A stretch of 64,000 nucleotides of DNA from a virus, in the IMG/VR virus record IMGVR_UViG_3300029319_000010, positions 1 to 64,000 of that record; one strand, 5' to 3'. The translations under genes and the position numbers were made by a program. The notes beneath the pieces are model-generated. The model had not been told where the DNA came from and did no database searches. It was given only the letters and a program-made list of their open reading frames with translations. Numbering within the stretch: the first letter of the stretch is position 1; each line of letters begins with the position of its first letter. Of this stretch, positions 1 to 64,000 are shown piece by piece.

Positions 1-3000
1 CATCATTTGGTTTATTTCTTTTATCAAACTTATTGTTCTTATCAAACTCTGGAAACTTAACTTCACCTTTTTCTGCCCTTTTTAATGTTTCTTGATACTT
101 TTCATATTGAGGATTTCTATCTATTGTTAATGTAGCTTCATTAAGTTTTTCTTGTGTTGTTGTACTAAGCACTCTTTCAAATGCTAGTTGTGCCTCAGTA
201 GCAGAAAGTGTTTCTGCATTAGGATCTGCAAACTTTCCAAACTTTACTAAACCTGGATTAAAAGGATAAAACTTTACTCCATTATCTATAGGAATCTTTT
301 TAATTGATTCAGATATAGGTCTATCAGTTTTACCTATAATAGTCCACTCTTGATCAGTCCAATCTTTTTTAGTTTTAATAAAGTCCTTTCTCTTCTTAGA
401 ATATGGTTTACCTATATCTTCACTATGTACTATATATAAATTTTTATTTTTATTAAATGTACTCTCTGTTGATCTTACAATCCATACATTCTTAGGATCT
501 CCTTTTCTTACAAGTCTATCACCTGTTTGAAAAGTTTCTCCAAATAAATCTTCAATTACAAAAGGATTTATAGGACTATACTCATTAATTCTTTTAGCTG
601 CTAACTTTGCTTGATCTAAAGTTTTATATGAACCTATATCATCTGGTGATATATCTTTTATTCTACCAAAAATATTATTTCCACTAGCATCAACAACAGC
701 ATAAATAAATCTATCTTGCTTACCAGTCTCAGATATTCTTGTTTGTTTTATGAAGATGCCGTCATAATTTGTATCTTTTATTTCAATATTATCTGATTCT
801 GTAGGTACATCTTCTTTAGTAGCTTTTTTATTAAACTCTACTGTAGATACAAATCTTAACTCTGTTTCATATTTCTCAATTATATCAAATACAGCTAACT
901 TATTATTTGGATCTATAATCCAATTATCAAAATCCCTAGCCCCTGTTTTTTTATAATTTTCACTCTCTTTATATTTTTCAAATAAATCATATCTTGCACC
1001 TAGTATTTGAAAACCACCATCACCTAATGGTAGTTTCTTTTTCTTCCAATCTGAATAATCTAAAGATGGTCTATCTGAATTTGCATATAATGCGTAAACA
1101 TCTTTCATTAAAGTTTGAGTAGGTTTATTAGCAGAATAAAAATTATCTCTTGCTTTAATTGCAGCTATAGTAGCATTAGAATTAGGATCTTCATCAACAG
1201 GCACTATAACTTCATCATTTTCTAAAGCATTCTCATAAGGATCATTCCCTTGTTGTAATTCATCTAACTGTTCTTCTACTGTAGCTTCTTGATTTTGCTC
1301 TTCTTCTTTTTTCTCAACTACTTCTGCTGCTTCAATAGCTTGTCTATAAGATCTTTCTAACTTTTTAATCTCTGCAAACTCAGGCATATCTTCTGTTATG
1401 GGGCCTTTTTCAAAAGATATGTATTCACTTGGCAGTTTATTTTGTTTTATAAATGCTTCTACTTGTTCTGGTGCAGGTTGAACTTGTGTTAAACCTTGTG
1501 CTTCACCTAATTTAGATAATTGATTTAAAAAAGTTCTTTGTGCATCTGTTAATATAGTTCTGTTTACTCTTTTAATTGAAGCATTTTTAGATGCATATTT
1601 ATTGTAAACTTGTTTGTGTACAATAGCCATTTCGTCAGCAAACCGTTTAGCAGTAACTGGATTAGCAAAAAAGTTAATAGCATCATTATATCTTGCTGCT
1701 TGTACATCTAAAGTTGTAAAATCTATAATCTTATCTATGTTTTCTCTTAAATCTTTATTTACTACTGACCCTCCTCTATAGGTAGCAATTTTTGCAAAAT
1801 AAGTTTGTATTAAATCTTTTAACTCTTCAACCATAAACTCAGGTAAATCAGAAACATCTAAACCTCTTTTTAAAGCTTGTATATTTGTAGCATCAAATAA
1901 AAGAGGTTTTATCTTTTGTAGTAAATCTAACTTTGCTCTTTTAAAATCTAAGTCTTCTTTTGTTTCAGGAGTTACTTCTGCATTTGCTAAAGTTTCTTTT
2001 AAAAATAAAATCTCTTTAGTCATACTTCTTTCAGATAATAATACATCTAACTCAGAAGCTTCTAAATTAGATACAACTGGAATTTGTGTTAATGATTGTA
2101 ATATATCTGCTTTTCTTTTTGTATAGTTTCTAAAAGAATCTCTAGAAAATAAAGCCATATCTCTCATAAACTCCCAACCTTGATAGTTAAAATACGCAGC
2201 ATTATATTCATCAGTACCCTTTTCATACTGAGTATATATGTATGGATTAGGTAACTTATCTGCTATATCTCTTTTATCTTTTTTTAATATTTTTGCATTT
2301 TCTATTGCTTCATCTAATCTTGTTCTTATTTTTTCAGGATCTGCATTTTTATCATCTACTATATTTACTATTTCTTTATCATCTAATTGTTTATATGATT
2401 CCATTTGATCAATAAATACATCATGACTTCCGCTATTAAGACTTGCTTTAATAGCTTGAAAAAGCTGTCCAGCCTTTGTATCAAAGTATTTTTTTACTTC
2501 ACCAGTTGTCACATGTTGAAAAGCCTCACGATCTGCTAGTAGTGTTGCTGCAGCATTCATTGTAGTTGGATGATAAAAATTAACAACATCATTGTATATA
2601 GCATTATCTCTTGCTGCCTGTATTTCTCTATACTTATCTGTTGCTTTTTTAAGATTTGCATAATCTTTATCTACCCTAGTATTAATAAAATCAGGAAGTA
2701 CATTAAATACTATTGATTGAGGTATTACTGTCGCACCTCTCATAAAAAAACCAGATAAAAACACTTTTAAACCTTGTGGTGACCATTGTTTGCTTATACC
2801 CTTTTTTGCATACTTAGAATATTCTTGAGGTGAAGATGCTAAAGCAGAAATTTCAGTTGATAATTGTTCTCCTGGTGTTTTATTAGAAGTCATATTATTA
2901 GCACTCTCCCAAACATTATCAACCAGCCCAAGAGATTTTTGTATTTCTGAATAAGTTAAACTATCAAGCATATTATTATAATATGCAGTCACTCCATCAG

Positions 3001-4660
3001 CAATTGCTTCTTGTGATACTTCTTGAACACCTTCCGGTATACCTAATATTGTAAATCTTAAAGCTCCGCCAGCAAGTCCTTTTGCTACACCTTTAGGAGA
3101 TGCAGCTTTTAAATTTTTTAAAAACCCCCTAATTCCTTGCTTTTTAGCAGCTACAGCTACAACAGGTTTTGTTGGAGTTCCTGGTTTAAATGCTCTACCT
3201 GCAGCAGTCCTTACTGTAGCACCTCTTGCACCATCTATACCTGTCTCTATTGCATCACCTGTTATCTTACGGAAACCTCTCATTGCTGTTCCAATAAGAA
3301 GTTTATTACTTAAATATATAAGTGGAAAGTTTTGATACAATGTCTTTAAACCTGCTCTCTTACCCATCTCTACTGTTGTTAACATTTCACCAGGTGTTAA
3401 AGGTCTACCAAATTTTTCTTCTAATTCTTTTTTTGATAGCTCTTGTATCTTCATCTCTTCCATACCTGCCTCCATCTTTGACTCAGCTAGTGCTAGATTA
3501 ATAGATCTTAAATCTCTATAGAATCCACCAAATGTTGTTTGTGCTTTAGCAAGAGATGTTAAATTATCACCAATAGAAGCAGAATGTTTTAATTTAGCAA
3601 AAGCACGCATTGTTTCTGGAGCAAAGAAATTACCTATACCTCTAGCTGTGCCTTGAAATCCATATTTAGCTGCTTGATAAAAATTCTCTGCATTCTTTAC
3701 TTTATTTAAAGTGTGACTGAAATTTCCTACTTGAGAAGTAAATCTTCTTACATCTGCTGCTCTTTCAAATGTTGTTTTAATTCTATTTATATTTCTAGCA
3801 GTACCAGCAGCCTTTGCATAAGCACTACCACCTCCTGTAAATGGAGAAGCTAAAACAGCTCCTCCCCATAATGCTAATTCTTCTAAAGCTATACCACCTA
3901 TTATACCAAATGTATATGCACTATTAACAAAAAAATCATTAATATGTCCTCTAGCAGTACCAGGGTTGTTTGTCATACCAATTCTCATTTGATCACTCAT
4001 AGCTCTAGCACCTTGAAAATCAGATAAGAAAGGATCACCTCTAAATAAATCCATTGTAGATCTATATGAAGAACCTACCGCGCTTTTAAATAATGATTTA
4101 AATGAGCCCCAACTTCTAGCCATTGCCTCCTGATTAGTCATATTTTGGTTATAATATCTTTCATTATCTCCAAAAGGATTAAAACCTAATCTAGAAAATG
4201 CAGAAGAAGAATAATATCTATCTAAATTAGTTGCAGCTGTATTAAGCTTTAGTGACTCAGTATAGTTAGGAGTTAAACCATCTTCAAAACCTAAAGCACC
4301 ATCAACTATTTGACGGTATCTCCCTTCTCTTTTTTGAACATCAGTACCTTGAAAATCACCAGATGATTCTGAATAAGGATCAAAGTTAGGTGTTACCTTA
4401 CCTGGATATGGTGCACTCATACTATTATTAGGTGGAAAGTATGGAAGAAACTGAGTAAAATTTTTAGCATCTTCTATAAGGGCATCTGTATATGGATCAA
4501 TAGGGCCAACATTATCAAACTCAAAAGCTTGAGATGCCATTTTTTGAAATGTATCTGGTGGTGGTAAATCAATCCTTGCATCATTAAGATTAATTTCTGG
4601 AGTAGAAAAAGAATCCTGCAAGATGTTATTTTCTGATAAGTTTAGTTTCTCTGTAGCCAT
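1..4660 (-). CDS. Giant virion cargo/ejection protein (>=1553 aa), truncated at the left window edge; position of the crAss-like virion-RNAP/ejection block
   Basis: Not in the ORF track. Manual translation from ATG at 4660 (MATEKLNLSENNILQDSF...) stays open to position 2 (...NKFDKRNKPND). Has a Gly/Ala hydrophobic segment (AYTFGIIGGIALEELALWGGAVLASPFTGGG) and an EGVQEVSQE motif. Follows the muzzle and other cargo genes. Confidence 0.75.
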   Translation of the reverse strand, partial: MATEKLNLSENNILQDSFSTPEINLNDARIDLPPPDTFQKMASQAFEFDNVGPIDPYTDALIEDAKNFTQFLPYFPPNNSMSAPYPGKVTPNFDPYSESSGDFQGTDVQKREGRYRQIVDGALGFEDGLTPNYTESLKLNTAATNLDRYYSSSAFSRLGFNPFGDNERYYNQNMTNQEAMARSWGSFKSLFKSAVGSSYRSTMDLFRGDPFLSDFQGARAMSDQMRIGMTNNPGTARGHINDFFVNSAYTFGIIGGIALEELALWGGAVLASPFTGGGSAYAKAAGTARNINRIKTTFERAADVRRFTSQVGNFSHTLNKVKNAENFYQAAKYGFQGTARGIGNFFAPETMRAFAKLKHSASIGDNLTSLAKAQTTFGGFYRDLRSINLALAESKMEAGMEEMKIQELSKKELEEKFGRPLTPGEMLTTVEMGKRAGLKTLYQNFPLIYLSNKLLIGTAMRGFRKITGDAIETGIDGARGATVRTAAGRAFKPGTPTKPVVAVAAKKQGIRGFLKNLKAASPKGVAKGLAGGALRFTILGIPEGVQEVSQEAIADGVTAYYNNMLDSLTYSEIQKSLGLVDNVWESANNMTSNKTPGEQLSTEISALASSPQEYSKYAKKGISKQWSPQGLKVFLSGFFMRGATVIPQSIVFNVLPDFINTRVDKDYANLKKATDKYREIQAARDNAIYNDVVNFYHPTTMNAAATLLADREAFQHVTTGEVKKYFDTKAGQLFQAIKASLNSGSHDVFIDQMESYKQLDDKEIVNIVDDKNADPEKIRTRLDEAIENAKILKKDKRDIADKLPNPYIYTQYEKGTDEYNAAYFNYQGWEFMRDMALFSRDSFRNYTKRKADILQSLTQIPVVSNLEASELDVLLSERSMTKEILFLKETLANAEVTPETKEDLDFKRAKLDLLQKIKPLLFDATNIQALKRGLDVSDLPEFMVEELKDLIQTYFAKIATYRGGSVVNKDLRENIDKIIDFTTLDVQAARYNDAINFFANPVTAKRFADEMAIVHKQVYNKYASKNASIKRVNRTILTDAQRTFLNQLSKLGEAQGLTQVQPAPEQVEAFIKQNKLPSEYISFEKGPITEDMPEFAEIKKLERSYRQAIEAAEVVEKKEEEQNQEATVEEQLDELQQGNDPYENALENDEVIVPVDEDPNSNATIAAIKARDNFYSANKPTQTLMKDVYALYANSDRPSLDYSDWKKKKLPLGDGGFQILGARYDLFEKYKESENYKKTGARDFDNWIIDPNNKLAVFDIIEKYETELRFVSTVEFNKKATKEDVPTESDNIEIKDTNYDGIFIKQTRISETGKQDRFIYAVVDASGNNIFGRIKDISPDDIGSYKTLDQAKLAAKRINEYSPINPFVIEDLFGETFQTGDRLVRKGDPKNVWIVRSTESTFNKNKNLYIVHSEDIGKPYSKKRKDFIKTKKDWTDQEWTIIGKTDRPISESIKKIPIDNGVKFYPFNPGLVKFGKFADPNAETLSATEAQLAFERVLSTTTQEKLNEATLTIDRNPQYEKYQETLKRAEKGEVKFPEFDKNNKFDKRNKPND

Positions 4661-31050: not shown

Positions 31051-31569
31051 TTACTTTTTTTTGTACATATGAGCAACTTTTCTATTGTTACCCATTATAA
31101 TGTATCTTGTCCAATTCTTTGGATAAGTCTTTGCTACTGCTCTTTTAAACTGTCTTACAGCTGTAAATTGCCAAAGTTCTCTATTCCTAAATCTATACTT
31201 AGTTGTATAGTTAGTATAGAAAATTTTTGCAACTTTACCATCAGTATCCCAGTTTTTGTTTTGCAAAACCTTTCCATATTTTTTGGATAGTGCGTAATCA
31301 GTATTTACACTCTTAGCTGCAGGACAAGTACCTATAAATAAATAACCTAAAGAATAAGGAAGTTCAACGCCATCTCTATTTTGTATGACTTCCTGCCAAA
31401 TCTTCTCATTAAAAAATTTAATTATATTTTTTAATTTATCATTATCTATGTTTTTATAAGCAGGATATTTCTCCTTAAATTCTTTTAATGTTTCTATATT
31501 TAAAATACTAAATACCTTTTCACGGTATCTAGGAGCATTTAAATTAGGTTTTTTAAAGTTACTTATCAT
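31051..31569 (-). CDS. IHF/HU-like protein of the crAss tail module (172 aa)
   Basis: Helical N-terminus then VELPYSLGYLFI turn typical of HU/IHF fold; basic; conserved position. Confidence 0.55.
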   Translation of the reverse strand: MISNFKKPNLNAPRYREKVFSILNIETLKEFKEKYPAYKNIDNDKLKNIIKFFNEKIWQEVIQNRDGVELPYSLGYLFIGTCPAAKSVNTDYALSKKYGKVLQNKNWDTDGKVAKIFYTNYTTKYRFRNRELWQFTAVRQFKRAVAKTYPKNWTRYIIMGNNRKVAHMYKKK

Positions 31570-36500: not shown

Positions 36501-37178
36501 TCTTGCACCTCCTGTTGCAACTGAACCTGTTGGTGTAATAGGATTACCATTAGCATCTACACTAGTAGGTCTAACTGTATTAGATCCGTATGCTGTAGTT
36601 CTTGCACCACCTATTGTTGTACCACCCGCACTTCTTTCAAGGTTAGCAATTCTTTCTTCATGGTTTTCTAAAGTTCTTTGTATAGATGTTACAGAGTCTT
36701 GTAAACCTGCCATATAGTTTCCTATAGTAATAACCCAACCTGTATCAGTTACTTCATCATACAATACTTGTTTTTTAATTCTTGTAGATCCTTGATCAAA
36801 TTGAGCAGCTTCAGGTAATGGCATAGAATATGCTGTAGCAAATCCTTTTGGATCAGCAGCAGCAGTTCTACTTAGTGCATCATCAGTTTCACATATTTTA
36901 TCAATAATAAACTGTAATAGTTCTTGTAAATTTTCAGCAGAACGCCCTTGACTTACAGTAATACACTTTTGTACAATACCATTTATTTCTGAATCAGCTA
37001 TTCTACCTCTTGCGGCAGTATTTGCAGTATCACATATTTCTTCAGCTATCTTTGCAACAATATCACTTATTGTATCACCCTGACATACATCAATACAATC
37101 TAGATCTGGACCCTGCCATACTACACAGTTAGAAGATAATGGATTACACCCATTAGTATTTTTCTTATTAGGTATCAT
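33555..37178 (-). CDS. Fibre/spike-like structural protein with coiled coil, FN3 and Ig/cadherin-like domains (1207 aa)
   Basis: SSNCVVWQGPDL N-terminus; LENHEERIANLE coiled coil; FN3 FSGLTAGTTYQLQ; Ig-like WTIVNQPANGTV...DSFTVK; S/T/G-rich. Confidence 0.65.
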   Translation of the reverse strand: MIPNKKNTNGCNPLSSNCVVWQGPDLDCIDVCQGDTISDIVAKIAEEICDTANTAARGRIADSEINGIVQKCITVSQGRSAENLQELLQFIIDKICETDDALSRTAAADPKGFATAYSMPLPEAAQFDQGSTRIKKQVLYDEVTDTGWVITIGNYMAGLQDSVTSIQRTLENHEERIANLERSAGGTTIGGARTTAYGSNTVRPTSVDANGNPITPTGSVATGGARGGGIMSAGAEQVVSRYLLSGTVTAGKLVSEVEKQLFELRRATGRPSELLKAIAYQQQNLALEDRLNGTGNMGLINGFNGSPRTVADAIKNLWITTNDMRAAVADLKATTTPSGCKDIVFDCIATIKRTSGGAWSYLGLDFRGSSIPTGYRDSGTGRQTKITITDASLNVFTTFVDVSGRYQSNQPLQLSDLGTVDKTSNLVVKVEFAVSNETNDCGETVTLNVTNASPCPTLTSSGSTENSISYTYSNVGLASGGSAKVYVNLLNSLGSVIQTKTYSSWGSGVSGSFSGLTAGTTYQLQFQMTTSAGISTTCPSDTLVTSAPSCTSVRVTSSAYSSSTTDQVAGSNSLELAVYNDTLNVYQWLATFDSSNTPIVIYSTITTTPTVAWSHAGSFVAENPVAAISCGGVTYTATGMTTAMEDSGWKYAGALTSPAGTIFYAYALINSVTKTITEVVFCCDCKQITLKPATPLVGGVFYCTTGGSTECKIDIVGDVSKTTVTPKWTIVNQPANGTVTYDAARSTSSQGCFAYQHNGGVWTSDSFTVKFTNACNTTAICNVPIVKAQPLTHNDEDIVVFLDTTTFSYSDAVKIKATFNALKTSLVNTFNWTGDVHYIPLGSGGSGTLEPGDYIKHIRGLIDSQNGQVSTSIDIAAGSGTWDTWKSLPGYFSSSSGSWKASVTVFSFVNQTNTNGNYGSALLANGFTTPTQPTSGGTTNDTQYKQDFDAVLNINDTTSTMQAWATAIQAKYPATGDWKNGSIPFVYNHFIINMLTGSINESAAAALQILAATTGAKMAGRNFYGSKIGGVQFPVDLQAYLLDGVAAGTNPYTGGTGTGSNTIVGLENHKVVPHMYFENGIDWGTDNTTVKDAFLGMMGLTEGSLLNAPSTSNCPRMHSNSTLFAFDASSSSTACSGVGSAATKIWNSTGTVFDPTVKAYSSQSGCTNAQSAYELAAGWYAYNDGGTNKRAQYVPAGPNYWINSSTC

Positions 37179-38597: not shown

Positions 38598-39176
38598 TTA
38601 ACAACATATTTCACATGTGATCTTCTTAAGCTTATTATATGCAAAAGTATAAAGCTCCATGCCTTCATTAGGACTATTACAATATTCTACCTTAGCTTTT
38701 GCAGCATCTATTAGCGTTCTAATATATTTCATTTCAGCTAATAATTTTTGTTGATCAGAGCTAGGCTCACAAGGTTTAACTTGTAATGAACAAAGTTTTT
38801 TATAATATTCAGCTAGTATTTCTGATATTCTTAAATGATTATATTCAACATAAACTTTATCATGAGGTGATACACTATATTTTATAATAAATATACCATC
38901 TTTAATAATAGTTCTTGTATTTGTACAATCTAAGGTTGTTAAACCTAAACTACATGCGTTTAAATTTATTGTTCCAAAATTATTCCACTCACCTGATGAA
39001 GATTTTGTAATATCCACCTTAATTAACTTTGGTGCTGTGTATCCAGGTGCGGTAATTTCTATTTGAGGGCAATCTACTTTTAAATTTTTACAATACGTAC
39101 TTGTATCTGTTAAAGTAAATATGTCACAATTAGACATGGTTGGTGCTTCTAGACTCAAAATATGTTTACATGCCAT
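38598..39176 (-). CDS. Cys-containing structural protein, possible tail hub (192 aa)
   Basis: ORF track; synteny with crAss structural genes. Confidence 0.45.
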   Translation of the reverse strand: MACKHILSLEAPTMSNCDIFTLTDTSTYCKNLKVDCPQIEITAPGYTAPKLIKVDITKSSSGEWNNFGTINLNACSLGLTTLDCTNTRTIIKDGIFIIKYSVSPHDKVYVEYNHLRISEILAEYYKKLCSLQVKPCEPSSDQQKLLAEMKYIRTLIDAAKAKVEYCNSPNEGMELYTFAYNKLKKITCEICC

Positions 39177-56987: not shown

Positions 56988-57291
56988 TATTAAATATTTT
57001 ATTCTTAATCTTGAGCAACTCTGCACATTTTTCATATTCTTCTAGATCTTCATAATAATATATTGTATCATTATAAACATCTTCATCTGGCTCATCACTT
57101 GGATTATATATCATAATTGCTTTTAAACCATACTTATCATTTACATCTAAAAGATCCTCAAATGAAGCTTTTTTTGTTAAAACCATATACGAGTTTTCAA
57201 ATGCTTGTTCTACAATATAGTTTTCATATTCTATTTTTTCTTCAAGACTCATCTTTTCAGATGATTCTTCATTGAAAGGATCTTTTGACAT
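56980..57291 (-). CDS. Acidic hypothetical protein with UVR-like C-terminal motif (103 aa)
   Basis: EEYEKCAELLK. Confidence 0.6.
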   Translation of the reverse strand: MSKDPFNEESSEKMSLEEKIEYENYIVEQAFENSYMVLTKKASFEDLLDVNDKYGLKAIMIYNPSDEPDEDVYNDTIYYYEDLEEYEKCAELLKIKNKIFNNV

Positions 57292-57310
57292 AATTTTAAG
57301 TTTTAGTTTT

Positions 57311-57484
57311 TTAACCTCTTCCTCTACTTCTCTTTAGAGAAGAAGAACCTTTGAATCTTGCAGCTTCCATTCTTGGGTCCATATTATGAGATCCACCATA
57401 CATCATGTATCCCATACCCATAGTTTTAGGCTTCTTTTTGTCACCACCCGCACGGTAGTTCATTCTTTTTCTAGTTCCTGGCAT
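57311..57484 (-). CDS. Small basic protein (57 aa), below ORF-track cutoff
   Basis: Manual translation MPGTRKRMNYRAGGDKKKPKTMGMGYMMYGGSHNMDPRMEAARFKGSSSLKRSRGRG; fills the gap and shares YxxGG with neighbours. Confidence 0.7.
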   Translation of the reverse strand: MPGTRKRMNYRAGGDKKKPKTMGMGYMMYGGSHNMDPRMEAARFKGSSSLKRSRGRG

Positions 57485-57513
57485 AATTTTAAATTTTAAT
57501 AGTTAATAAATAA

Positions 57514-58221
57514 TTACATCATGTTTCTTCTAAACATTCTGTCTCTTTTTCTATCCATACGTCTATCACGTCTTGCTTGCTGTCTCTCTGTTCTAGCATC
57601 TATTCTACCCATCTTTCTAGCTTGTCTGTCCATACGTCTATCCATTCTTCTTTCTTGTCTGTTCTCTCTTCTGTCCGCTCTACGTGCTTGTCTTTCCTCT
57701 CTTCTATCAGCTCTTCTAGCTTGTCTCATCTCTCTCATTAGGTCACGACCTTCTTTTCTAGCCGCTCTACGCATAAATCTGTTTCCTATTCTAGTTAAAG
57801 CTGGATCTGGTCCTCCCATTCCAGGTGCCATATAGTTAAATCCCATAGTTCCTGGTCCTGACATTCCCATCATATTAAATCCTGGTCTTGCATAAGCTGT
57901 TTGCATAGGGTTTACAACAGGCATTATATTTGATCCTGTACCCATGCCTGCTTCAACGGCAGAGCTTAAATCTCCAGTAGTATTATAATTAGCTATTCCT
58001 TCATCAACCATATCTGGATTTAGACCTGCATCTATTAATTCTTCTCTAATTTCTCCCGTATCTTGATACGAAGTCAATTTCTTTCTAGTTCCGCCTCCAT
58101 ACCCCATTCTTCTACGAGCTGTCCCACCAGATTTAAGATAACCCATTTTCTTTCTAACACTAGGGTCTAATGCTCTTAATCCGTTATATTTTTTACCTTT
58201 TGGTATTGCTTTAAGTGCCAT
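57514..58221 (-). CDS. Protein with Arg-rich repeat C-terminus (235 aa), first gene of the late module
   Basis: RRADRRE/RRMDR repeats; GYLKSGG, MGYGGG, YQDTGE motifs. Confidence 0.75.
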   Translation of the reverse strand: MALKAIPKGKKYNGLRALDPSVRKKMGYLKSGGTARRRMGYGGGTRKKLTSYQDTGEIREELIDAGLNPDMVDEGIANYNTTGDLSSAVEAGMGTGSNIMPVVNPMQTAYARPGFNMMGMSGPGTMGFNYMAPGMGGPDPALTRIGNRFMRRAARKEGRDLMREMRQARRADRREERQARRADRRENRQERRMDRRMDRQARKMGRIDARTERQQARRDRRMDRKRDRMFRRNMM

Positions 58222-58284
58222 AATTTTTATTTTAAAATTAGTATTTCATTTTTAAGTTACCCTTCTGTAAAGGATCCCCTCACT

Positions 58285-58300
58285 ATTTAATATACAAAAA
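58285..58300 (-). promoter_or_regulatory. Putative late promoter motif TT(T/A)GTATATTA (representative copy)
   Basis: Similar motif in intergenic gaps at ~14671, 32870, 37218, 39210 and 40795, with variants at ~8258, 31582 and 46168, always on the minus strand. Confidence 0.6.
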
Positions 58301-58446
58301 CTCCCCCGGTAATGCAAAAATAATGTGTTTAAGGTTCTAATGGGGTTTATGTTTTTGGCTCCCCCAATAAAGTCCGGCAGTGTACTACCCCCAGGTTGTA
58401 TACTGGCAATATATATAAATCTTAAATAAATTTAAAATTAATAGCT

Positions 58447-58782
58447 ATGGCGACAATAAAAATTAAGAACCACGGTTCTCAAATATTAGTAACTGACTCT
58501 GATGTAGTCAGAGATGTGCAAGGTAATGAAAAGTGTAATGAAGAGTTTCCTTTTCTAAAAGATGTACCAATGTTAAACATTGATCCAACCGGCAAAGTTG
58601 GCATCCTTCCATTAAAGAAAGGATCCAAAATGGCTGAAGTATTTCTTGGCTTACCCAAAGGTACAAAAGTACCTGTTGAGTTAACCAAGAAAGAAATAGA
58701 AGGTGCAGATGGTAAAATCTACTACCGTGCAAGATTAATCTCTTCATACTTTACAGCAATAAAAGCAAAGGCAGATAAATAA
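58447..58782 (+). CDS. Hypothetical protein, first gene of the plus-strand early region (111 aa)
   Basis: ORF track; AT-rich leader; hairpin over the stop codon. Confidence 0.7.
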   Translation: MATIKIKNHGSQILVTDSDVVRDVQGNEKCNEEFPFLKDVPMLNIDPTGKVGILPLKKGSKMAEVFLGLPKGTKVPVELTKKEIEGADGKIYYRARLISSYFTAIKAKADK

Positions 58783-58798
58783 ATCTGCTTTTTGCTTT
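58762..58798 (+). terminator. Hairpin overlapping the stop codon (terminator or processing site)
   Basis: AAAGCAAAGGCAGAT-aaataa-ATCTGCTTTTTGCTTT. Confidence 0.5.
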
Positions 58799-58799
58799 A

Positions 58800-59490
58800 G
58801 CTTGTCTTATGGAAGCTACGGTAATATGGAACTTACTGTAGCTTTTTACCTGCTTATATAGCAATCCAGGTCCTGAACTTACGCAGAACAGTTGTACCTG
58901 CAACTATACAGCAACTTTTTTATCTTTTTGCTCCCAAAATAATTTTTGCACAGCAAAAAGTTGTGTGTGTTAGTGTGTAAAGATGAGGTATACAATACCA
59001 CATTTTACCACTTAACACCACATGGTCTAACGGAATGAACCGTATTAAATAATATAGCTATAACTACTACATCAGGCGTGCCAAACAGAAGAGTACAAGG
59101 TAGTACTCACGGATTGATAGTAGTAGTTGTAGTCTTATGTTCTCTCTCTATAGGATAAGAGACATAGTAACCGCAAGGTTATAAATTGGAATTAAATAAA
59201 TAGAGGTTTAGTTCTTCGGTAATATAAGTAAAGCACAGTAGGATGCTGTTGAGGAGTATTACTGCACCGGTCTACAAAGCTAGTAGATTGCCAGAGATCT
59301 TAGGTAGAAACACTACTTAGTCTATTAGAGATGTAGTTATAATATATGTGCACAATGTATTATAACTCTCTCTTCTTATAATCTAACAGAGTAAACTGTA
59401 TAAAAGAAACTAGGAGAAGTTAACTGCACATGGTTGCAAACATAGATGCAGAGGGTTAGGAGTAATTACCTAATCTTCTGTCTTCTCCAT
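58800..59490 (+). ncRNA. Candidate long structured non-coding RNA or structured leader
   Basis: No ORF >=60 aa; about ten stems, G-U pairs on the + strand, GCAA tetraloop at 59168-59181, long-range closing helices. Confidence 0.6.
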
Positions 59491-59493
59491 CAC

Positions 59494-59537
59494 ATAACGT
59501 CCACATACTACGTTCAAAGTATGAATTCACTTAAATT
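59494..59537 (+). repeat. 44-nt leader element, copy 1 (putative H-type pseudoknot)
   Basis: ATAACGTCCACATACTACGTTCAAAGTATGAATTCACTTAAATT; 38/44 identical to 59927-59970. Confidence 0.8.
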
Positions 59538-59550
59538 TAATTAACTAAGA

Positions 59551-59829
59551 ATGGAAACATATGAAATAAGAATCTATCCTCATGAATATATGGATAGAGC
59601 TAAACAAGATCACTTTGCTGCATTTAATATAGCAGATAAAATATCTAATGTAATAAAATTAATGTTAGATTCTGATACTGAAGTAAAATATATTGATGAA
59701 TCAACTAATGATAGTTATCAGTATTTAATACTTAATCCAAATAGTCTTGTTACAAAGGAACTAAGAAAGAAAATAGAATTAGTTTTTCCTAAAGTACATT
59801 TTGGAAATAGATGGAGAGAGGTAGCTTAA
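59551..59829 (+). CDS. Hypothetical early protein (92 aa)
   Basis: ORF track; preceded by leader copy 1. Confidence 0.7.
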   Translation: METYEIRIYPHEYMDRAKQDHFAAFNIADKISNVIKLMLDSDTEVKYIDESTNDSYQYLILNPNSLVTKELRKKIELVFPKVHFGNRWREVA

Positions 59830-59926
59830 TGTTACCTCTTTACTATTGGACCGTAACTCACCTATCTTTGGTTGGGCTTGATCACCTGTAATCATTGATC
59901 CAAATGACGTGAGTGAGGTCCTCATT

Positions 59927-59970
59927 ATAACGCTTGCATACTGCGTTTAAAGTATGAATTCACTTAAATT
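59927..59970 (+). repeat. 44-nt leader element, copy 2 (putative H-type pseudoknot)
   Basis: ATAACGCTTGCATACTGCGTTTAAAGTATGAATTCACTTAAATT. Confidence 0.8.
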
Positions 59971-59977
59971 AAATGAT

Positions 59978-60244
59978 ATGAACTTAGGAATAAAAATATT
60001 TAATAAAGCAATGTTTAAAAGATTTATGGGATTTGCTGACCAAGGTCAAGTATTTAAAAAGGACGCTCTTTATGTACTTAGAAATGAATGGAAATATTCA
60101 GATGGAAGTACAGGAAAATTCTTTGTTACAGGTAAAATGATTTATCAAGCACTAAATGACTCTACAAGTAATGACAGATTTAGTGATATAGATATTAATC
60201 ATAAAGATTTTATTAATCAAATGATTCTAAATCTTTGCGTGTAA
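59978..60244 (+). CDS. Hypothetical early protein (88 aa; alternative in-frame start 59954)
   Basis: ORF track; the 59954 ATG lies inside the repeated leader. Confidence 0.65.
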   Translation: MNLGIKIFNKAMFKRFMGFADQGQVFKKDALYVLRNEWKYSDGSTGKFFVTGKMIYQALNDSTSNDRFSDIDINHKDFINQMILNLCV

Positions 60245-60384
60245 AGTAACAACGTCACCACTGACGTACAAACAATACCAGTATTAAAAGTACTGTTATA
60301 GTAAACAGTTGTTATGATTGTTTATTTAAGTGGGTAGTGATTAAGGAGGGACATTATAGCTACTGTTCTTCCTTAATCCGTTTT

Positions 60385-60458
60385 GGTCTCATAGCTCAAT
60401 TGGATAGAGCAACAGCCTTCTAAGCTGTAGGTTCTAGGTTCAAGTCCTAGTGGGATCA
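60385..60458 (+). tRNA. tRNA-Arg (anticodon TCT), CCA not encoded
   Basis: Acceptor GGTCTCA/TGGGATC, D-arm GCTC..GAGC, anticodon arm ACAGC-CTTCTAA-GCTGT, T-arm CTAGG-TTCAAGT-CCTAG. Confidence 0.95.
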
Positions 60459-60485
60459 CGAAATAAATTGTATAACTTAATAATA

Positions 60486-60944
60486 ATGACTATGAATCTA
60501 AATAATATTTTAAAGAAACTAATAACAACAGAAGATAGAAAAAACTTACATGACTATGTTTTTAATATGCTATTACACAATACAGATACAGCAGTATTAG
60601 AGTATTGTATACATGTTATCTGTGAAGATAAAAAGCCAATGAGAATAGATATAGCTGATGATATATGGTTTGACCCTAAAGATAATATGTATGACCTTGA
60701 AGATGTACTTATGTATAAAGATAGATTAATTGATGCTAATCTTATGACTGAAGAAGGTCTACTAAAAGGCAAAATTATATCAGACACAAGTTATAAAGAA
60801 GAATGTAACCCTTATGCAGCAGAATATAAAGTAGAATTTGGTATGAAAAAGTTTAAAGATATTGATAATACCAACTTCTACAAAGAGATAAGGGTTAAAA
60901 GACAAAACATATGGGGAATAGTAGAACCAGAAGATTTGGTATAG
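60486..60944 (+). CDS. Hypothetical protein (~152 aa)
   Basis: ORF track start 60450 overlaps the tRNA; ATG at 60486 or 60492 more likely. Confidence 0.65.
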   Translation: MTMNLNNILKKLITTEDRKNLHDYVFNMLLHNTDTAVLEYCIHVICEDKKPMRIDIADDIWFDPKDNMYDLEDVLMYKDRLIDANLMTEEGLLKGKIISDTSYKEECNPYAAEYKVEFGMKKFKDIDNTNFYKEIRVKRQNIWGIVEPEDLV

Positions 60945-61165
60945 TTGACCATGATGTTGTCACTGATCCTGATTTGTCTCTACAAGCTAAAGGTGTTTAT
61001 GCAGTCATAAGCACCTTTTGCAACACCAACAGAACTTGTTATCCATCCATTGCAACTATTGCAGATTTATGTGATGTGAGTACAAGAACTGTGGATAGAA
61101 AGCTTAAAGAATTGAAAGATAAAGGTTATCTTCATAGAAATGGAAAAATAATTAAATTATTATAG
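60911..61165 (+). CDS. Helix-turn-helix protein (replication-initiator/HTH_36-like; 84 aa)
   Basis: DLSLQAKGVYAVI...CYPSIATIADLCDVSTRTVDRKLKELKDKGYL. Confidence 0.8.
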   Translation: MGNSRTRRFGIVDHDVVTDPDLSLQAKGVYAVISTFCNTNRTCYPSIATIADLCDVSTRTVDRKLKELKDKGYLHRNGKIIKLL

Positions 61166-61230
61166 CTATATATATGCTATATTTATTTATTGCTGTCTCA
61201 ATTAGATTAGTATAAATAAATATAATAGTA

Positions 61231-61238
61231 TACTTTTG
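61231..61238 (+). promoter_or_regulatory. Bacteroidota-type -7 element TACTTTTG
   Basis: Matches TAnnTTTG 4 nt before the ATG at 61243. Confidence 0.4.
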
Positions 61239-61242
61239 TGCT

Positions 61243-61509
61243 ATGATATATCAATTACCAAACGGGCGTATAATAGAACTGACATTAGAACAATACCTAG
61301 ATTTAACTGATGATGAGTTAAAAGATTTAAACGGTCTAGATTCTAGCTACACTACTGACCCTAAAGGTCCTTTCTATAAATCAATTCTTGATAAAGCAAA
61401 GAAAGAAAAGAAAGATATCTCTTCTTCAGGTAATTATGAACCTGGAGTTGATGAGATATCCAAAGATGATATCATTAATGATGAATATTTTCATCGTGAT
61501 GATACCTAA
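61243..61509 (+). CDS. Hypothetical acidic protein (88 aa)
   Basis: ORF track, coding strand of the region. Confidence 0.7.
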   Translation: MIYQLPNGRIIELTLEQYLDLTDDELKDLNGLDSSYTTDPKGPFYKSILDKAKKEKKDISSSGNYEPGVDEISKDDIINDEYFHRDDT

Positions 61510-61542
61510 ACAACCAAATTAATTAACTAAATATTTTTAAAA

Positions 61543-62130
61543 ATGATTGAAAACAACCAACCAGTTGTCATTTCACGTGATGAAAGTGGCAACATTATTA
61601 GAGTATCAAAGAACAATCCTGAATACGGCTTTGTTAGAGTAGAGCAACCAACTTTTGCAATAGCAGGAGGATGGGTAGATGACAAAACTAGATCTGCAAT
61701 TATCAACGGTAAGCTTGAAAAACTACAAAGAATGCTACCAGCGTTAGAAAAAAATGAAAAGAACTTAAAAGGACAAATTATTATTACTGAACAGTTTGAT
61801 CCATTCTTTACTAACACTGAACATCCTAAGTATGAGCAATTAAGAGATAAAAATCTTAAAGTTGCAGGTGATACAGGTGTAGTTCTTAAAGGTGTAGATC
61901 CTGAAACAGGTGAAGAAAGACCTATTTATAGAAAAACTGAATTCACTAGTGATATGAATGCTACTGATACTTTTATTTCTCACATTAACAGTGATGAGAT
62001 AAGAGCAGCACAAGCAGGAACTACAACTAAAGAAGCAAAAGAAGATTTCATGGCAGCAGCAGAAGAAGCTGACAAAGAAGTTGAGAAAGAAGAAGAAGTA
62101 GAAATGCAAGATGAAACTTTTGAGCTATAG
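61543..62130 (+). CDS. Possible ssDNA-binding protein (195 aa)
   Basis: Beta-rich N-terminus, acidic tail ending DETFEL, strong terminator downstream; inference only. Confidence 0.4.
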   Translation: MIENNQPVVISRDESGNIIRVSKNNPEYGFVRVEQPTFAIAGGWVDDKTRSAIINGKLEKLQRMLPALEKNEKNLKGQIIITEQFDPFFTNTEHPKYEQLRDKNLKVAGDTGVVLKGVDPETGEERPIYRKTEFTSDMNATDTFISHINSDEIRAAQAGTTTKEAKEDFMAAAEEADKEVEKEEEVEMQDETFEL

Positions 62131-62172
62131 GTCTGTTAACACCTTAAGTTAATAATTTATTTCAAGTGAATT

Positions 62173-62202
62173 AGGGATTGTTAGAAATAGCAATCCCTTT
62201 TT
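62173..62202 (+). terminator. Rho-independent terminator
   Basis: AGGGATTGTTA-GAAA-TAGCAATCCCT followed by T-run. Confidence 0.85.
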
Positions 62203-62230
62203 CTTTATACAAACATTTAAATAAATAATC

Positions 62231-62716
62231 ATGTTAGATAAAAATCAAGCAAATAAAATAAAATTACAACAAAGAAAAGATAGATACGAATACATGGGTT
62301 TACTAACTGAGTATCAATTAGTTATGAACACAGGTAGTTTCGTTGAGTATACTAAATTAAATCCAAAGCAACACTTTATATTTAAAAGAGTATTGCATGG
62401 TCTAAAGATGTATAATGAAGCAGAGATTGCTAAAATGCATTGGGATAAAAAGAGAAGAGTGATTAAAGTATGGAAGCGTGGTCAAGAGGTTATTAATGAG
62501 TTAAAACAATGGGTAGCTTATAAGCAAGTTCAACCTATTTTTCGTATATTTGCTAAGTCTGAATTAGGCAGGGCAATATATGAATCTGAGTTTGAATATT
62601 TACCAGACTACAGGAATAAACATACACTTAAAGACTTAGGATTAAACTATTCAGATTTAATTCTAAAGTTTATGAGTGTAGGATTAGTTCCTAAAAACTT
62701 TTATAGTTTAAAATGA
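62231..62716 (+). CDS. Hypothetical protein (161 aa)
   Basis: ORF track; overlaps the next gene's start. Confidence 0.7.
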   Translation: MLDKNQANKIKLQQRKDRYEYMGLLTEYQLVMNTGSFVEYTKLNPKQHFIFKRVLHGLKMYNEAEIAKMHWDKKRRVIKVWKRGQEVINELKQWVAYKQVQPIFRIFAKSELGRAIYESEFEYLPDYRNKHTLKDLGLNYSDLILKFMSVGLVPKNFYSLK

Positions 62717-62976
62717 GACAGAAATCAAAAAAAATGCAGAAGCTTGATGCAAAGTATAGTAAATTAAGGAGGGTATTTCTTGATGACTATCCTATGTGTC
62801 AAGCTGCACTGCCTAAATGTACTGTTAAATCTACAGATGTGCATCATAAGAAAGGTAGGGGGATCTACCATAATGATGTAAGTACGTGGTTATCAGTATG
62901 TAGGAACTGTCACAACTGGATAGAACTAAATCCAGTAGAGGCAGAAGAATTAGGATTTTCAATTAAAAGAATATGA
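62713..62976 (+). CDS. HNH endonuclease-like protein (87 aa)
   Basis: CQ..LPKC, DVHHKKGR, WLSVCRNCHNWI. Confidence 0.8.
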   Translation: MRQKSKKMQKLDAKYSKLRRVFLDDYPMCQAALPKCTVKSTDVHHKKGRGIYHNDVSTWLSVCRNCHNWIELNPVEAEELGFSIKRI

Positions 62977-63209
62977 TTAAATTATTACAATACTTAGCAG
63001 TAACTTTAAAAAGAGAAGATTTATATAATCTTGCAATGTTTTTGTCAGAGAATCCTGACATTATAGATCAAGAAACTTTAATGCATATAGTAGATGAAGT
63101 TGATGGATGGAACAGTAACAATGAACTGTACCGTGAAGAACACAATAAACTTATTGAAGATAAAAAACTTAAAGATTTATTAAGAGATAATAACATTAAT
63201 TTAAATTAA
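62973..63209 (+). CDS. Hypothetical protein (78 aa)
   Basis: ORF track; ATGA coupling. Confidence 0.65.
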   Translation: MIKLLQYLAVTLKREDLYNLAMFLSENPDIIDQETLMHIVDEVDGWNSNNELYREEHNKLIEDKKLKDLLRDNNINLN

Positions 63210-63210
63210 G

Positions 63211-63408
63211 ATGAGAAAAAAAATTTTTAATATGAGTAAACATTTATTAGTATTACTTATAATGTTAACAGCACTTAGTTGCGGATCATACGGTATGTTT
63301 TATACACTATTTCATGGATGGGTATACATAATATTATTTATAATTAGTGGTGCATCATTTGCACTTAGTATGTTTATACTATATACACTTTCTAATCAAT
63401 CAAAATAA
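63211..63408 (+). CDS. Small two-TM membrane protein (65 aa)
   Basis: Two hydrophobic helices; TAATG coupling to the helicase. Confidence 0.6.
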   Translation: MRKKIFNMSKHLLVLLIMLTALSCGSYGMFYTLFHGWVYIILFIISGASFALSMFILYTLSNQSK

Positions 63409-64000
63409 TGGAAGTGAAGGAAATATCAAGAGATAAAGTACAAGCTGATGCATTAGATGTAGCAATACAGAATGTAAGAGCAACTCTAGCAGTATCTATG
63501 GGAGTAGGTAAAACTAGAGTTGCTATTCAGCATTTAATGAAACTATATGATTCTTTTATAAGGGTGTTAGTTGTTGTACCAAAGTGGTCTGTAAAAGATT
63601 CTTGGGAAGATGAACTACAAAAGATGGGTGAGCTTAGACTTGTACATCATATAGAGTTTTGCACATACTTATCATTAAATAAAAAGAATCCAAATGATTA
63701 TGATATAGTCTATCTTGATGAATGTCATAGCTTATTAGAATCACATGAATCATTTCTCTCTGAGTTTAAAGGTAGAATACTGGGACTTACTGGTACACCA
63801 CCAAGATCAGGAGAGAAGCTAAAGATGGTTAATAAGTATTGTCCTGTTAAATATACATTTAGTGTAGATGATGCAGCTGACAATGATATACTTAATGACT
63901 ATCAGATTATAGTACATGAACTTGAATTATCAAGAGTAAAAAATGTTAAGAAGTCTACAAGAGATGGAAGAACATGGTATACATCTGAGAAAGCAGATTA
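63408..64000 (+). CDS. Superfamily 2 (DExH) helicase, truncated at the right edge
   Basis: Not in the ORF track. Manual translation MEVKEISRDKVQADAL... shows Walker A SMGVGKT, VLVVVP, YLDECH, GLTGTP. Confidence 0.9.
   Translation, partial: MEVKEISRDKVQADALDVAIQNVRATLAVSMGVGKTRVAIQHLMKLYDSFIRVLVVVPKWSVKDSWEDELQKMGELRLVHHIEFCTYLSLNKKNPNDYDIVYLDECHSLLESHESFLSEFKGRILGLTGTPPRSGEKLKMVNKYCPVKYTFSVDDAADNDILNDYQIIVHELELSRVKNVKKSTRDGRTWYTSEKAD

What the first reader, a model, noticed from the sequence alone, without database searches (positions are those of the whole stretch)
59494..59970. Duplicated leader forms an H-type pseudoknot with a compensatory base-pair change
Seen: copy 1 AACGT-CCA-CATACT-ACGTT-CAA-AGTATG and copy 2 AACGC-TTG-CATACT-GCGTT-TAA-AGTATG. 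P1 is AACGY/RCGTT, and its U-A pair in copy 1 is C-G in copy 2. P2 is CATACT/AGTATG. The other four differences all fall in loops. Each copy is followed by the same AATTCACTTAAATT and then an early gene; the ATG in P2 is in frame with that gene in both (a 7-codon uORF in copy 1). Known: compact pseudoknots act as the T4 gene 32 translational operator, as small riboswitches, and as type III antitoxin RNAs that phages can mimic. Inference: an undescribed cis-regulatory RNA co-regulating early genes; alternatively a hairpin promoter for the virion RNAP. Loop 3 is short, so P1 and P2 could instead be alternative hairpins.
Basis: partly seen in the sequence, partly recalled or inferred. Interest (0 to 1): 0.85.

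Follow-up and report, generated by a model that had tools for sequence, protein, structure and literature searches.

The report
Hairpin-type early promoter cassettes, crAss-like phage
Two copies of a 30-base signal with two interleaved, co-varying inverted repeats head two early genes of an uncultured marine crAss-like phage; it belongs to a wider family of small 'TAAC-hairpin-GT..AAA' signals that are most likely the still undefined promoters of the RNA polymerase these phages inject, rather than a free-standing regulatory RNA pseudoknot.

Summary
ATAACGY-N3-CATAYT-RCGTN-NAA-ARTATG occurs twice (59494-59523, 59927-59956) and nowhere else in the 114-kb genome. Thirteen distinct copies from related marine contigs keep both helices. 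The inner P1 pair is T-A or C-G, never mixed, and flipped at least three times. One P2 pair is C-G or T-A.

The reading changes with context. The element sits 1-17 nt after a non-conserved, often terminator-like hairpin and 47-57 nt before the start codon of unrelated small early genes. It is exchangeable, behind identical upstream sequence, with other elements sharing one grammar: T-AAC-xx-[6-9 nt loop]-x'x'-GT-NN-AAA. One sister element always precedes a tRNA gene; others precede non-coding stretches. That argues against a translational operator and for a promoter class recognised as a small hairpin, as in coliphage N4. The phage encodes a homologue of the crAss virion RNA polymerase.

P1 is the family-defining hairpin. 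P2 is peculiar to this subclass, rests on one compensatory event, and is thermodynamically marginal. No transcript data could be obtained, so DNA-level versus RNA-level action is inferred. This scan noted similar early-promoter cassettes in other crAss-like genomes, with different motifs.

The parts
59494..59523 (+). M1 copy 1 (ATAACGTCCACATACTACGTTCAAAGTATG). P1 is 59496-59500 with 59510-59514. P2 is 59504-59509 with 59518-59523.
59927..59956 (+). M1 copy 2 (ATAACGCTTGCATACTGCGTTTAAAGTATG). P1 is 59929-59933 with 59943-59947. P2 is 59937-59942 with 59951-59956.
59528..59536 (+). Leader box CACTTAAAT of copy 1, 23 nt before the ATG at 59551. In relatives the same box lies 17-19 nt before early start codons, with or without M1 upstream.
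59961..59969 (+). Leader box CACTTAAAT of copy 2, 17 nt before the ATG at 59978.
59449..59480 (+). Non-conserved 12-bp hairpin upstream of copy 1. The fold leaves a 5-nt spacer before the motif.
59551..59829 (+). Early ORF of 92 aa with no family. Its orthologue in L005 (90% identity) has only the leader box upstream, not M1.
59817..59839 (+). Terminator-like hairpin (AGAGGTA/TACCTCT, then TTACTATT) at the end of the 92-aa ORF.
   Evidence: read directly
59848..59921 (+). Long imperfect hairpin (GGACC..CTCAC..TTTGG..GATCA and its complement arms) ending 5 nt before copy 2. It is nearly identical in L005/L006.
59954..60244 (+). Early ORF of 96 aa as listed. Its probable true start is 59978.
59382..59404 (+). 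M2 sister element TCTAACAGAGTAAACTGTATAAA (stem ACAG/CTGT, loop AGTAAA). This 16-nt core occurs in 33 distinct contexts across about 30 related viral and metagenome contigs.
59026..59050 (+). M2' sister element TCTAACGGAATGAACCGTATTAAAT (stem ACGG/CCGT, loop AATGAA). L022 has a variant with the same loop and stem ACAG/CTGT.
60248..60274 (+). M4-like sister element TAACAACGTCACCACTGACGTACAAAC, 136 nt before tRNA-Arg. The same arrangement occurs in L019, L070 and L078.
60385..60459 (+). tRNA-Arg (tct), downstream of M4.
2..4660 (-). C-terminal part of a 5221-aa ORF that runs over the record ends. The part outside the window carries the crAss-type virion RNA polymerase motif (DLDID here, DFDID in 74 of 76 homologues).

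Best explanation
The two copies are early promoters, each with its short leader, in a marine crAss-like phage. They are most likely read by the phage's injected two-barrel virion RNA polymerase.

They belong to a family of elements with one grammar: T-AAC-xx-[loop of 6-9 nt]-x'x'-GT-NN-AAA. The proposal is that the polymerase recognises this small hairpin in melted or extruded DNA, as N4 virion RNA polymerase does. It would start a few bases downstream, giving a leader of roughly 25-30 nt that contains the CACTTAAAT box.

In the M1 subclass the 9-nt loop carries CATAYT, which is complementary to ARTATG just after the hairpin (P2). P2 either stabilises the long loop or occludes the start region, and it is an add-on of this subclass.

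Each promoter follows a terminator-like hairpin, so the early region is a string of terminator-promoter-gene cassettes. Related phages exchange these cassettes by recombination at the shared junctions.

- Shown: the repeat, the covariation, the family grammar, the interchangeability, the positions, and the polymerase homologue.
- Inferred: promoter function, which enzyme reads it, DNA-level folding, and the start site.
For: - **Real, rare signal.** There are two copies and none elsewhere in 114 kb. Related contigs carry 1-3 copies each, always on the coding strand and within about 1-2.5 kb of the switch from leftward late genes to rightward genes.
- **Covariation at unconstrained positions.** The inner P1 pair is T-A (5) or C-G (8) in 13 distinct members and never mixed. 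It flips between copies sharing the same leader or gene: window c1 vs c2, L011 vs L025b, L019 vs window c2. One P2 pair is C-G (7) or T-A (6).
- **Family grammar.** M2 (AG/CT, loop AGTAAA), M2' (GG/CC, loop AATGAA, with an AG/CT variant in L022), M1 (GY/RC) and M4 (GT/AC, loop CACCACTG) share TAAC...GT-NN-AAA despite loops of 6-9 nt. When complementarity is not required by the scan, 47 of 64 forward-strand matches pair at both inner positions, against 3 of 16 on the reverse strand. A fixed linear spacing is therefore not conserved, but the hairpin junction is.
- **Interchangeability.** 'ctgtcttctccatca' is followed by M1 in the window and by M2 in L008. 'gtgtggagttRgttggtgtaa' is followed by M1 (L011, L019), M2 (L022, L041, L071, L090, L091) or M4 (L070).
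- **Not only before proteins.** M4 lies 135 nt before tRNA-Arg in four contigs. M2 and M2' precede structured non-coding stretches.
- **Upstream hairpin.** Every M1 follows a stable, non-conserved hairpin by 1-17 nt, and some hairpins have T-runs.
- **Not a host-type promoter.** Late genes carry a different TTTTGTATATTAT-like box.
- **Polymerase present.** The 5221-aa ORF family has an invariant D-x-D-x-D (DFDID in 74 of 76 homologues). Its profile matches phi14:2 gp66 across that motif, with E 8.5e-10 and a collinear second stretch at about 1e-6.
- **Literature.** gp66 transcribes denatured DNA, and its early transcripts showed no common upstream motif (10.1101/2020.03.07.982082). N4 promoters are hairpins with conserved and freely co-varying stem bases, three per genome (PMC4496689).
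Against:
- Stems are only 4-5 bp with 6-9 nt loops, unlike N4's 5-7 bp stem and 3-nt loop.
- The hairpins are weak: DNA -1.2 to -4.1 kcal/mol, RNA -4 to -5 kcal/mol, and not clearly better than shuffles.
- Most stem positions were fixed by the search patterns, so their invariance is partly ascertainment. P1-free and P2-free scans found no further members.
- In L005/L006 two early genes have only the leader box behind a terminator-like hairpin. Either those hairpins do not terminate fully or the box has promoter function of its own.
- The cultured crAss-like phage phi14:2 has none of these motifs.
- Nothing links the motif to the virion polymerase rather than to another phage or host factor.
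Confidence: 0.55

Rival explanations
1. The element acts as RNA. It would be a compact H-type pseudoknot (P1 4-5 bp, L1 3 nt, P2 6 bp, L3 3-4 nt with conserved AA) in the 5' leader of early mRNAs. A phage or host protein would bind it to control translation or stability, in the manner of the T4 gene 32 operator (pseudoknot followed by an A/U-rich unstructured leader) or RegA-type repression.
For: - Both helices are complementary in all 13 members, each with one covarying pair.
- Loop lengths are sterically plausible, and L3 ends in AA in every member. The AAA run (L3's AA plus the first P2 base) was left free only in the metagenome scan.
- The element lies 20-27 nt before start codons and is followed by UUAAAU-type A/U-rich sequence. 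P2 contains an AUG that opens short uORFs.
- My rough nearest-neighbour sums with a 9 kcal/mol pseudoknot penalty give about -4.5 (copy 1) and -6 (copy 2) kcal/mol. That equals or slightly betters either hairpin alone. This estimate is not a tool result.
Against: - Sister elements at the same junctions lack P2 and precede a tRNA and non-coding RNA.
- No G-U pairs occur in about 50 instances.
- The evidence for P2 is a single event separating two paralogous lineages.
- The helices are weak, and no Rfam family matches.
- Downstream genes are unrelated to each other, and none is an ssDNA-binding protein by PHROG search.
Confidence: 0.25
2. The early genes are made as one long transcript. The upstream hairpins and the TAAC elements would be intercistronic processing or stabilising signals, like the RNase III sites between T7 early genes, or antitermination sites of the lambda nut / HK022 put kind.
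For: - Several upstream hairpins lack a T-run.
- The elements recur between cistrons in one orientation.
- Some genes in relatives have no element of their own.
Against: - Antitermination sites are expected before terminators and once per operon, not after each hairpin.
- The elements are sequence-invariant across phages whose flanks have diverged, which is typical of polymerase-promoter pairs.
- No processing enzyme or N-like protein was identified.
Confidence: 0.1
3. The inverted repeats are double-stranded DNA operators for a dimeric phage regulator. This could be a repressor of early genes or a replication initiator such as the neighbouring DnaD-like protein.
For: - The half-sites ACGY/RCGT and ACAG/CTGT are palindromic.
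- The elements lie near the replication genes and in a long non-coding region.
Against: - Half-site spacing differs between classes (6, 8 and 9 nt) while the flanks stay identical.
- A position tolerating two bases should also give mixed half-sites, and none is seen in 13 members.
- Two interleaved palindromes are hard to fit with one dimer.
- The elements keep a fixed distance to start codons and a single orientation.
Confidence: 0.05

Closest known systems
Early promoters P1-P3 of coliphage N4, read by the injected virion RNA polymerase (review PMC4496689)
   Same: - A few copies per genome lie at the head of the earliest genes.
- A small inverted repeat has conserved stem-base and flank bases, plus stem positions that may change only if pairing is kept.
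- A short A-run lies between the hairpin and the start region.
- The polymerase is carried in the virion and prefers single-stranded templates in vitro (for crAss-like gp66).
   Different: - N4 hairpins have 5-7 bp GC-rich stems and 3-nt loops; here stems are 4-5 bp with loops of 6-9 nt.
- N4 polymerase is T7-like and single-subunit; this phage has a crAss-type two-barrel enzyme inside a 5221-aa protein.
- N4 has no second helix between the loop and the start region.
- Function here is untested.
PeSL (promoter-early stem-loop) cassettes of T4-type phages (PMC2839356, PMC4122927)
   Same: - These are composite terminator stem-loop plus early promoter units between small, variable early ORFs.
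- The same cassette stands before different genes in related phages, with homology breakpoints at the cassette.
   Different: - The PeSL promoter is a host sigma-70 early promoter.
- Here the signal is phage-specific, unlike the host-type boxes of the late genes, and itself contains a covarying hairpin.
T4 gene 32 translational operator (5' pseudoknot followed by an A/U-rich leader); from my own knowledge, not checked in a paper here
   Same: - It has two interleaved short helices followed by UUAAA-type A/U-rich sequence running to the start codon.
   Different: - The gene 32 operator regulates a single ssDNA-binding protein gene; here the downstream genes are unrelated small ORFs.
- Sister elements here precede a tRNA.
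- Transcription of the 5' arms is not shown.
Candidate early-promoter cassettes noted by this scan in other crAss-like phages (e1-6019249, e1-5930244 and others; unchecked AI notes)
   Same: - A hairpin plus a clade-specific short signal heads the first small genes.
- They are proposed as promoters of the injected polymerase, and the cassettes are swapped between relatives.
   Different: - The motif sequences differ.
- Here the signal itself is a covarying hairpin family, and one subclass adds a second, interleaved helix.

Membership tests
N4-type hairpin promoter | Inverted repeat able to form a 5-7 bp stem with a 3-nt loop centred about 11 nt before the start | tested here: not met
   Stems are 4-5 bp and loops 6-9 nt. 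The start site is unknown.
N4-type hairpin promoter | Conserved stem and flank bases, plus stem positions free to vary if pairing is kept | tested here: met
   TAAC..GT-NN-AAA is conserved. The inner pairs are AG/CT, GG/CC, GT/AC or GC/GC.
N4-type hairpin promoter | A few copies at the head of the early genes, in one orientation | tested here: met
   There are 1-3 M1 and 1-3 M2 per contig, all on the coding strand just after the late/early switch.
N4-type hairpin promoter | Read by a T7-like single-subunit virion RNA polymerase | tested here: not met
   The only polymerase-like protein found is a crAss gp66-type two-barrel homologue.
N4-type hairpin promoter | Transcripts start at a fixed distance from the hairpin | not testable with these tools
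H-type RNA pseudoknot operator (T4 gene 32 type) | Two interleaved helices with sterically possible loops | tested here: met
   P1 is 4-5 bp, L1 3 nt, P2 6 bp and L3 3-4 nt in all 13 members.
H-type RNA pseudoknot operator (T4 gene 32 type) | Covariation in both helices | tested here: inconclusive
   There is one covarying pair per helix. P1 flipped at least 3 times and P2 once. The other pairs were fixed by the search patterns.
H-type RNA pseudoknot operator (T4 gene 32 type) | Stable fold of the free RNA | tested here: inconclusive
   Each hairpin alone is -4 to -5 kcal/mol with z -0.8 to -1.8. No pseudoknot-capable folding tool was available.
H-type RNA pseudoknot operator (T4 gene 32 type) | Leader of the gene for the protein that binds it | tested here: not met
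   Downstream ORFs are unrelated to each other and have no family. Sister elements precede a tRNA.
PeSL-type terminator/promoter cassette | Stem-loop plus early promoter between small variable early ORFs, acting as recombination junctions | tested here: met
   An upstream hairpin lies 1-17 nt before every M1. Identical upstream contexts are followed by different elements, and the same genes occur with or without M1.
PeSL-type terminator/promoter cassette | Promoter part is a host sigma-70-type early promoter | tested here: not met
   No host-type hexamers are conserved in M1 or M2. The host-type box TTTTGTATATTAT is found before late genes instead.
Any curated RNA family (Rfam 15), including small riboswitches | Match to a covariance model | tested here: not met
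   Only the tRNA scored in 57000-64000 at E up to 1.
Type III toxin-antitoxin RNA (ToxI-like) | Tandem array of about 36-nt pseudoknot repeats next to a toxin gene | tested here: not met
   The two copies are dispersed 433 nt apart, each before a different ORF. They are not tandem.

The most novel reading that the evidence does not exclude
M1 may be a genuine nucleic-acid pseudoknot promoter. In melted or extruded DNA, or in the first bases of the transcript, the loop of the promoter hairpin would pair with the initiation region. The promoter would then carry its own structural switch that gates initiation, or use of the uAUG, by the injected crAss-type polymerase. No such promoter architecture is known for any RNA polymerase.
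Probability: 0.2. Interest if true: 0.85.

Novelty: new variant of a known kind. Interest (0 to 1): 0.6.

Why it matters
The promoter of the crAss-type virion RNA polymerase is an open question. The only study of the enzyme found that it transcribes denatured DNA and found no common motif before its early transcripts (10.1101/2020.03.07.982082).

A sharply defined family of small hairpin signals gives concrete templates for testing promoter recognition by this enzyme family. Its features are co-varying stems, conserved flanks, placement at the head of early transcription units, and a clade that encodes a gp66 homologue. If the signals are recognised as hairpins, that would explain the single-strand preference and would be a second, independent case of N4-like hairpin promoters with an unrelated polymerase.

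The interleaved P2 helix adds a testable structural twist. The cassette exchange shows how early 'ORFan' genes are shuffled in these abundant marine phages.

Tried and rejected
**Searches that found nothing or were unavailable**
- The exact 27-nt core found nothing in viral contigs.
- The 92-aa and 96-aa ORFs have very few relatives, so anchoring on neighbouring genes gave only one useful locus (L005).
- The genome search cannot draw relatives of a virus record or read metagenome records.
- Pattern scans leaving all of P1 or all of P2 free, anchored on the rest plus the leader box, returned only known members.
- A sequence-only covariance model found no diverged copies in 200 kb of family loci. 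The family is all-or-none.
- M1 has no match in 50,697 deposited phage genomes.
- None of the motifs appears in open-access papers other than as chance primer matches.
- phi14:2 has no such motifs.

**Ideas rejected**
- The window ORF 14707-21282 as the polymerase was rejected. It shows no similarity to gp66, its DFD is followed by KSD, and it carries an SLT domain.
- Direct searches of the giant ORF against PDB, PHROGs, Pfam and deposited phages gave nothing. Only a family profile built from 76 homologues reached gp66.
- An ECF-sigma-like reading (AAC ... CGT) was rejected because the spacing is 12 nt, not 16-17. This is my own reading.
- An origin or iteron reading was rejected because the copies are hundreds of bases apart and keep a fixed distance to start codons.
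- M2 inner-pair variants among pattern hits (GG/CC in L044, CA/TG in L092) are no more numerous than chance and were not counted.

Full report
**1. The observation**

The window is bases 1-64000 of a 114,213-bp IMG/VR virus record with 31.5% G+C.

- At 59494-59541 and 59927-59974 there is a 48-nt direct repeat with 85% identity.
- Its first 30 nt read ATAACGT-CCA-CATACT-ACGTT-CAA-AGTATG and ATAACGC-TTG-CATACT-GCGTT-TAA-AGTATG. Both are followed by AATTCACTTAAATT.
- A degenerate pattern with up to three mismatches finds only these two sites in the window (0.00 expected) and in the whole record.
- The two downstream ORFs (92 and 96 aa) are unrelated to each other and to any PHROG.

**2. The phage**

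- Terminase, portal and major head protein match crAss-type families. The terminase is about 25% identical to those of Crassvirales phages of Bacteroides, Flavobacterium and Cellulophaga.
- The 2732-aa ORF carries the crassvirus muzzle domain, and the 2191-aa ORF carries a lytic transglycosylase domain.
- Leftward structural genes fill 1-58221. Rightward small genes and replication genes start at 58447.
- Late genes are preceded by TTTTGTATATTAT-like boxes that differ from the element studied here.
- A giant ORF runs over the record ends: 103080-114071 plus window 2-4660, 5221 aa in all.
- In 76 homologues of 27-83% identity (mostly about 30%), the sequence SGADFDIDK is invariant at the three aspartates. 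It reads DLDID in this genome.
- A profile of this family matches the virion RNA polymerase gp66 of Cellulophaga phage phi14:2 across its DFDID catalytic motif. The E-value is 8.5e-10, and a collinear second stretch scores about 1e-6.
- The phage therefore encodes a crAss-type virion polymerase homologue.

**3. Relatives of the element**

*How they were found.* A scan of viral contigs and one of metagenome contigs left the variable positions as N. Together they gave 13 distinct true members in AT-rich marine contigs, several from Tara samples. They also gave about six chance hits in G+C-rich contigs.

*What the unconstrained positions show.*
- The inner P1 pair is T-A (5) or C-G (8) and never mixed.
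- One P2 pair is C-G (7) or T-A (6) and never mixed.
- The P1 flip separates copies that share the same leader or downstream gene: window copy 1 vs 2, L011 vs L025b, and L019 vs window copy 2. It therefore happened at least three times.
- The P2 change separates two paralogous lineages (CATACT.. and CATATT..) that coexist in one contig (L025). It counts as one event.
- The outermost A-T pair of P1 is lost in the second lineage.
- L1 and the first base of L3 vary freely.
- Chance hits mostly break P1.

*Limits of the family.*
- Scans that left all of P1 or all of P2 free found no additional members.
- A sequence-only model found no degenerate copies in 200 kb of family loci.
- The element is therefore sharply defined, at 1-3 copies per contig.

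*Stability.*
- Each helix alone is weak: RNA -4.2 to -5.0 kcal/mol and DNA -2.7 to -4.1 kcal/mol, with z-scores of -0.8 to -1.8.
- In context, the nested fold picks P2 for copy 1 and P1 for copy 2.

**4. Context**

- In every contig the element lies in the first 1-2.5 kb of the rightward block.
- It sits 1-17 nt after a stable hairpin of unrelated sequence, some with T-runs.
- It sits 47-57 nt before the start codon of various small ORFs.
- The ATG inside P2 is not a conserved start. It opens uORFs of 2-12 codons, or is in frame by accident.
- A box CACTTAAAT lies 17-19 nt before early start codons, with or without the element upstream.
- The homology between the window and L005 begins exactly at this box. 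The 92-aa gene has M1 in the window but only the box in L005.

**5. Sister elements**

- Upstream of several box-only genes there is a second conserved signal, (a)tcTAACAGAGTAAACTGTnnAAATc, called M2 here.
- M2 occurs once in the window (59382-59404) and in 33 distinct contexts across about 30 related contigs. It is found on the coding strand only, 1-3 per contig, 3-20 nt after a hairpin. It lies 52-62 nt before a start codon or before structured non-coding stretches.
- Two further classes share the grammar T-AAC-xx-[loop]-x'x'-GT-NN-AAA.
  - M2' has stem GG/CC and loop AATGAA (window 59026-59050). A variant with the same loop and stem AG/CT occurs in L022.
  - M4 has stem GT/AC and loop CACCACTG (window 60248-60274). 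It always lies 135-136 nt before tRNA-Arg.
- When complementarity of the two inner pairs is not demanded, 47 of 64 forward-strand matches to the grammar pair at both positions. On the reverse strand 3 of 16 do.
- Identical upstream sequences are followed by different classes.
  - 'ctgtcttctccatca' is followed by M1 in the window and M2 in L008.
  - 'gtgtggagttRgttggtgtaa' is followed by M1 (L011, L019), M2 (L022 and four others) or M4 (L070).
Only M1 has a loop complementary to the 3' flank (P2).

**6. Interpretation**

*Features pointing to a phage-specific promoter class.*
- The elements are signals of about 20-30 nt, nearly invariant between diverged genomes.
- They are few per genome and lie in one orientation.
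- They stand at the head of separately bounded early units that include protein genes, a tRNA and non-coding stretches.
- They are exchangeable with one another.
- They differ from the host-type boxes of the late genes.

*Hairpin recognition.*
- The flanks are conserved while loop length varies (6, 8, 9 nt) and the inner stem covaries with strict Watson-Crick pairs.
- This suggests recognition of a folded hairpin, not a linear duplex.
- That is how N4 virion RNA polymerase reads its three early promoters. There, conserved stem bases are contacted and the others need only pair (PMC4496689).
- The crAss-type enzyme gp66 transcribes denatured DNA, and no promoter motif is known for it.
- The terminator-promoter-gene layout and the swapping resemble the PeSL cassettes of T4-type phages (PMC4122927).

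*My odds.*

| Reading | Confidence |
|---|---|
| Early promoter | 0.55 |
| RNA pseudoknot operator in the leader | 0.25 |
| Processing or antitermination signal | 0.10 |
| Duplex operator | 0.05 |

*Judgements on the helices.*

| Statement | Probability |
|---|---|
| P1 pairing matters | about 0.85 |
| P2 pairing matters | about 0.6 |
| Both form together | about 0.35 |

The main gap is the absence of any start-site or expression data.

**7. Novelty**

- No Rfam family, no deposited phage and no open-access paper holds the motif.
- Hairpin promoters (N4) and terminator/promoter cassettes (PeSL) are known kinds.
- This scan has noted candidate early-promoter cassettes with other motifs in other crAss-like genomes (unchecked AI notes).
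- What is new here is a covarying hairpin family in a crAss-like clade, and a subclass with a second, interleaved helix.
- I rate it a new variant of a known kind, with moderate to high interest because it makes the crAss polymerase promoter question directly testable.

Noticed in passing
window 2-4660 (-) plus G000:103080-114071 (-): One ORF of 5221 aa runs over the ends of the record. Its family (76 homologues) has invariant D-x-D-x-D (SGADFDIDK; DLDID here). Its profile matches phi14:2 virion RNA polymerase gp66, so the polymerase is embedded in a giant multi-domain protein.
   Followed up: partly
window 58783-59493: About 700 nt have no ORF but hold sequence blocks shared by 5-8 related contigs (59049-59063, 59133-59176) and several long hairpins. 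The region contains M2' and M2, so it may be one or two early non-coding RNAs, like the highly transcribed intergenic regions of phi14:2.
   Followed up: partly
window 58990-59025: An ACCAC-rich stretch (ccacattttaccacttaacaccacatgg) is conserved directly upstream of M2' in five contigs.
   Followed up: no
window 60275-60384: A leader of about 110 nt between the M4 element and tRNA-Arg(tct) is almost identical in four contigs that otherwise differ upstream.
   Followed up: no
window 59848-59921: A 74-nt imperfect hairpin before M1 copy 2 is nearly identical in L005/L006, while the neighbouring protein is only 90% identical. Its role is unexplained; it could be a terminator, a processing site or part of the promoter context.
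   Followed up: partly
window 58222-58446: The divergent intergenic region between the late and early blocks carries several C5 runs. The same is seen in L005. A GGTTGTATACTGG box resembling the late-gene box lies before the first rightward gene.
   Followed up: no
window, upstream of many minus-strand genes (e.g. before 31051-31569, 31632-32840, 33555-37178, 38598-39176, 57514-58221): A recurrent TTTTGTATATTAT-like box is probably the host-type (Bacteroidota-like) middle/late promoter.
   Followed up: no
window 14707-21282 (-) and 21282-29480 (-): The 2191-aa protein has a C-terminal SLT lytic transglycosylase domain. The 2732-aa protein matches the crassvirus muzzle family PF25731.
   Followed up: partly
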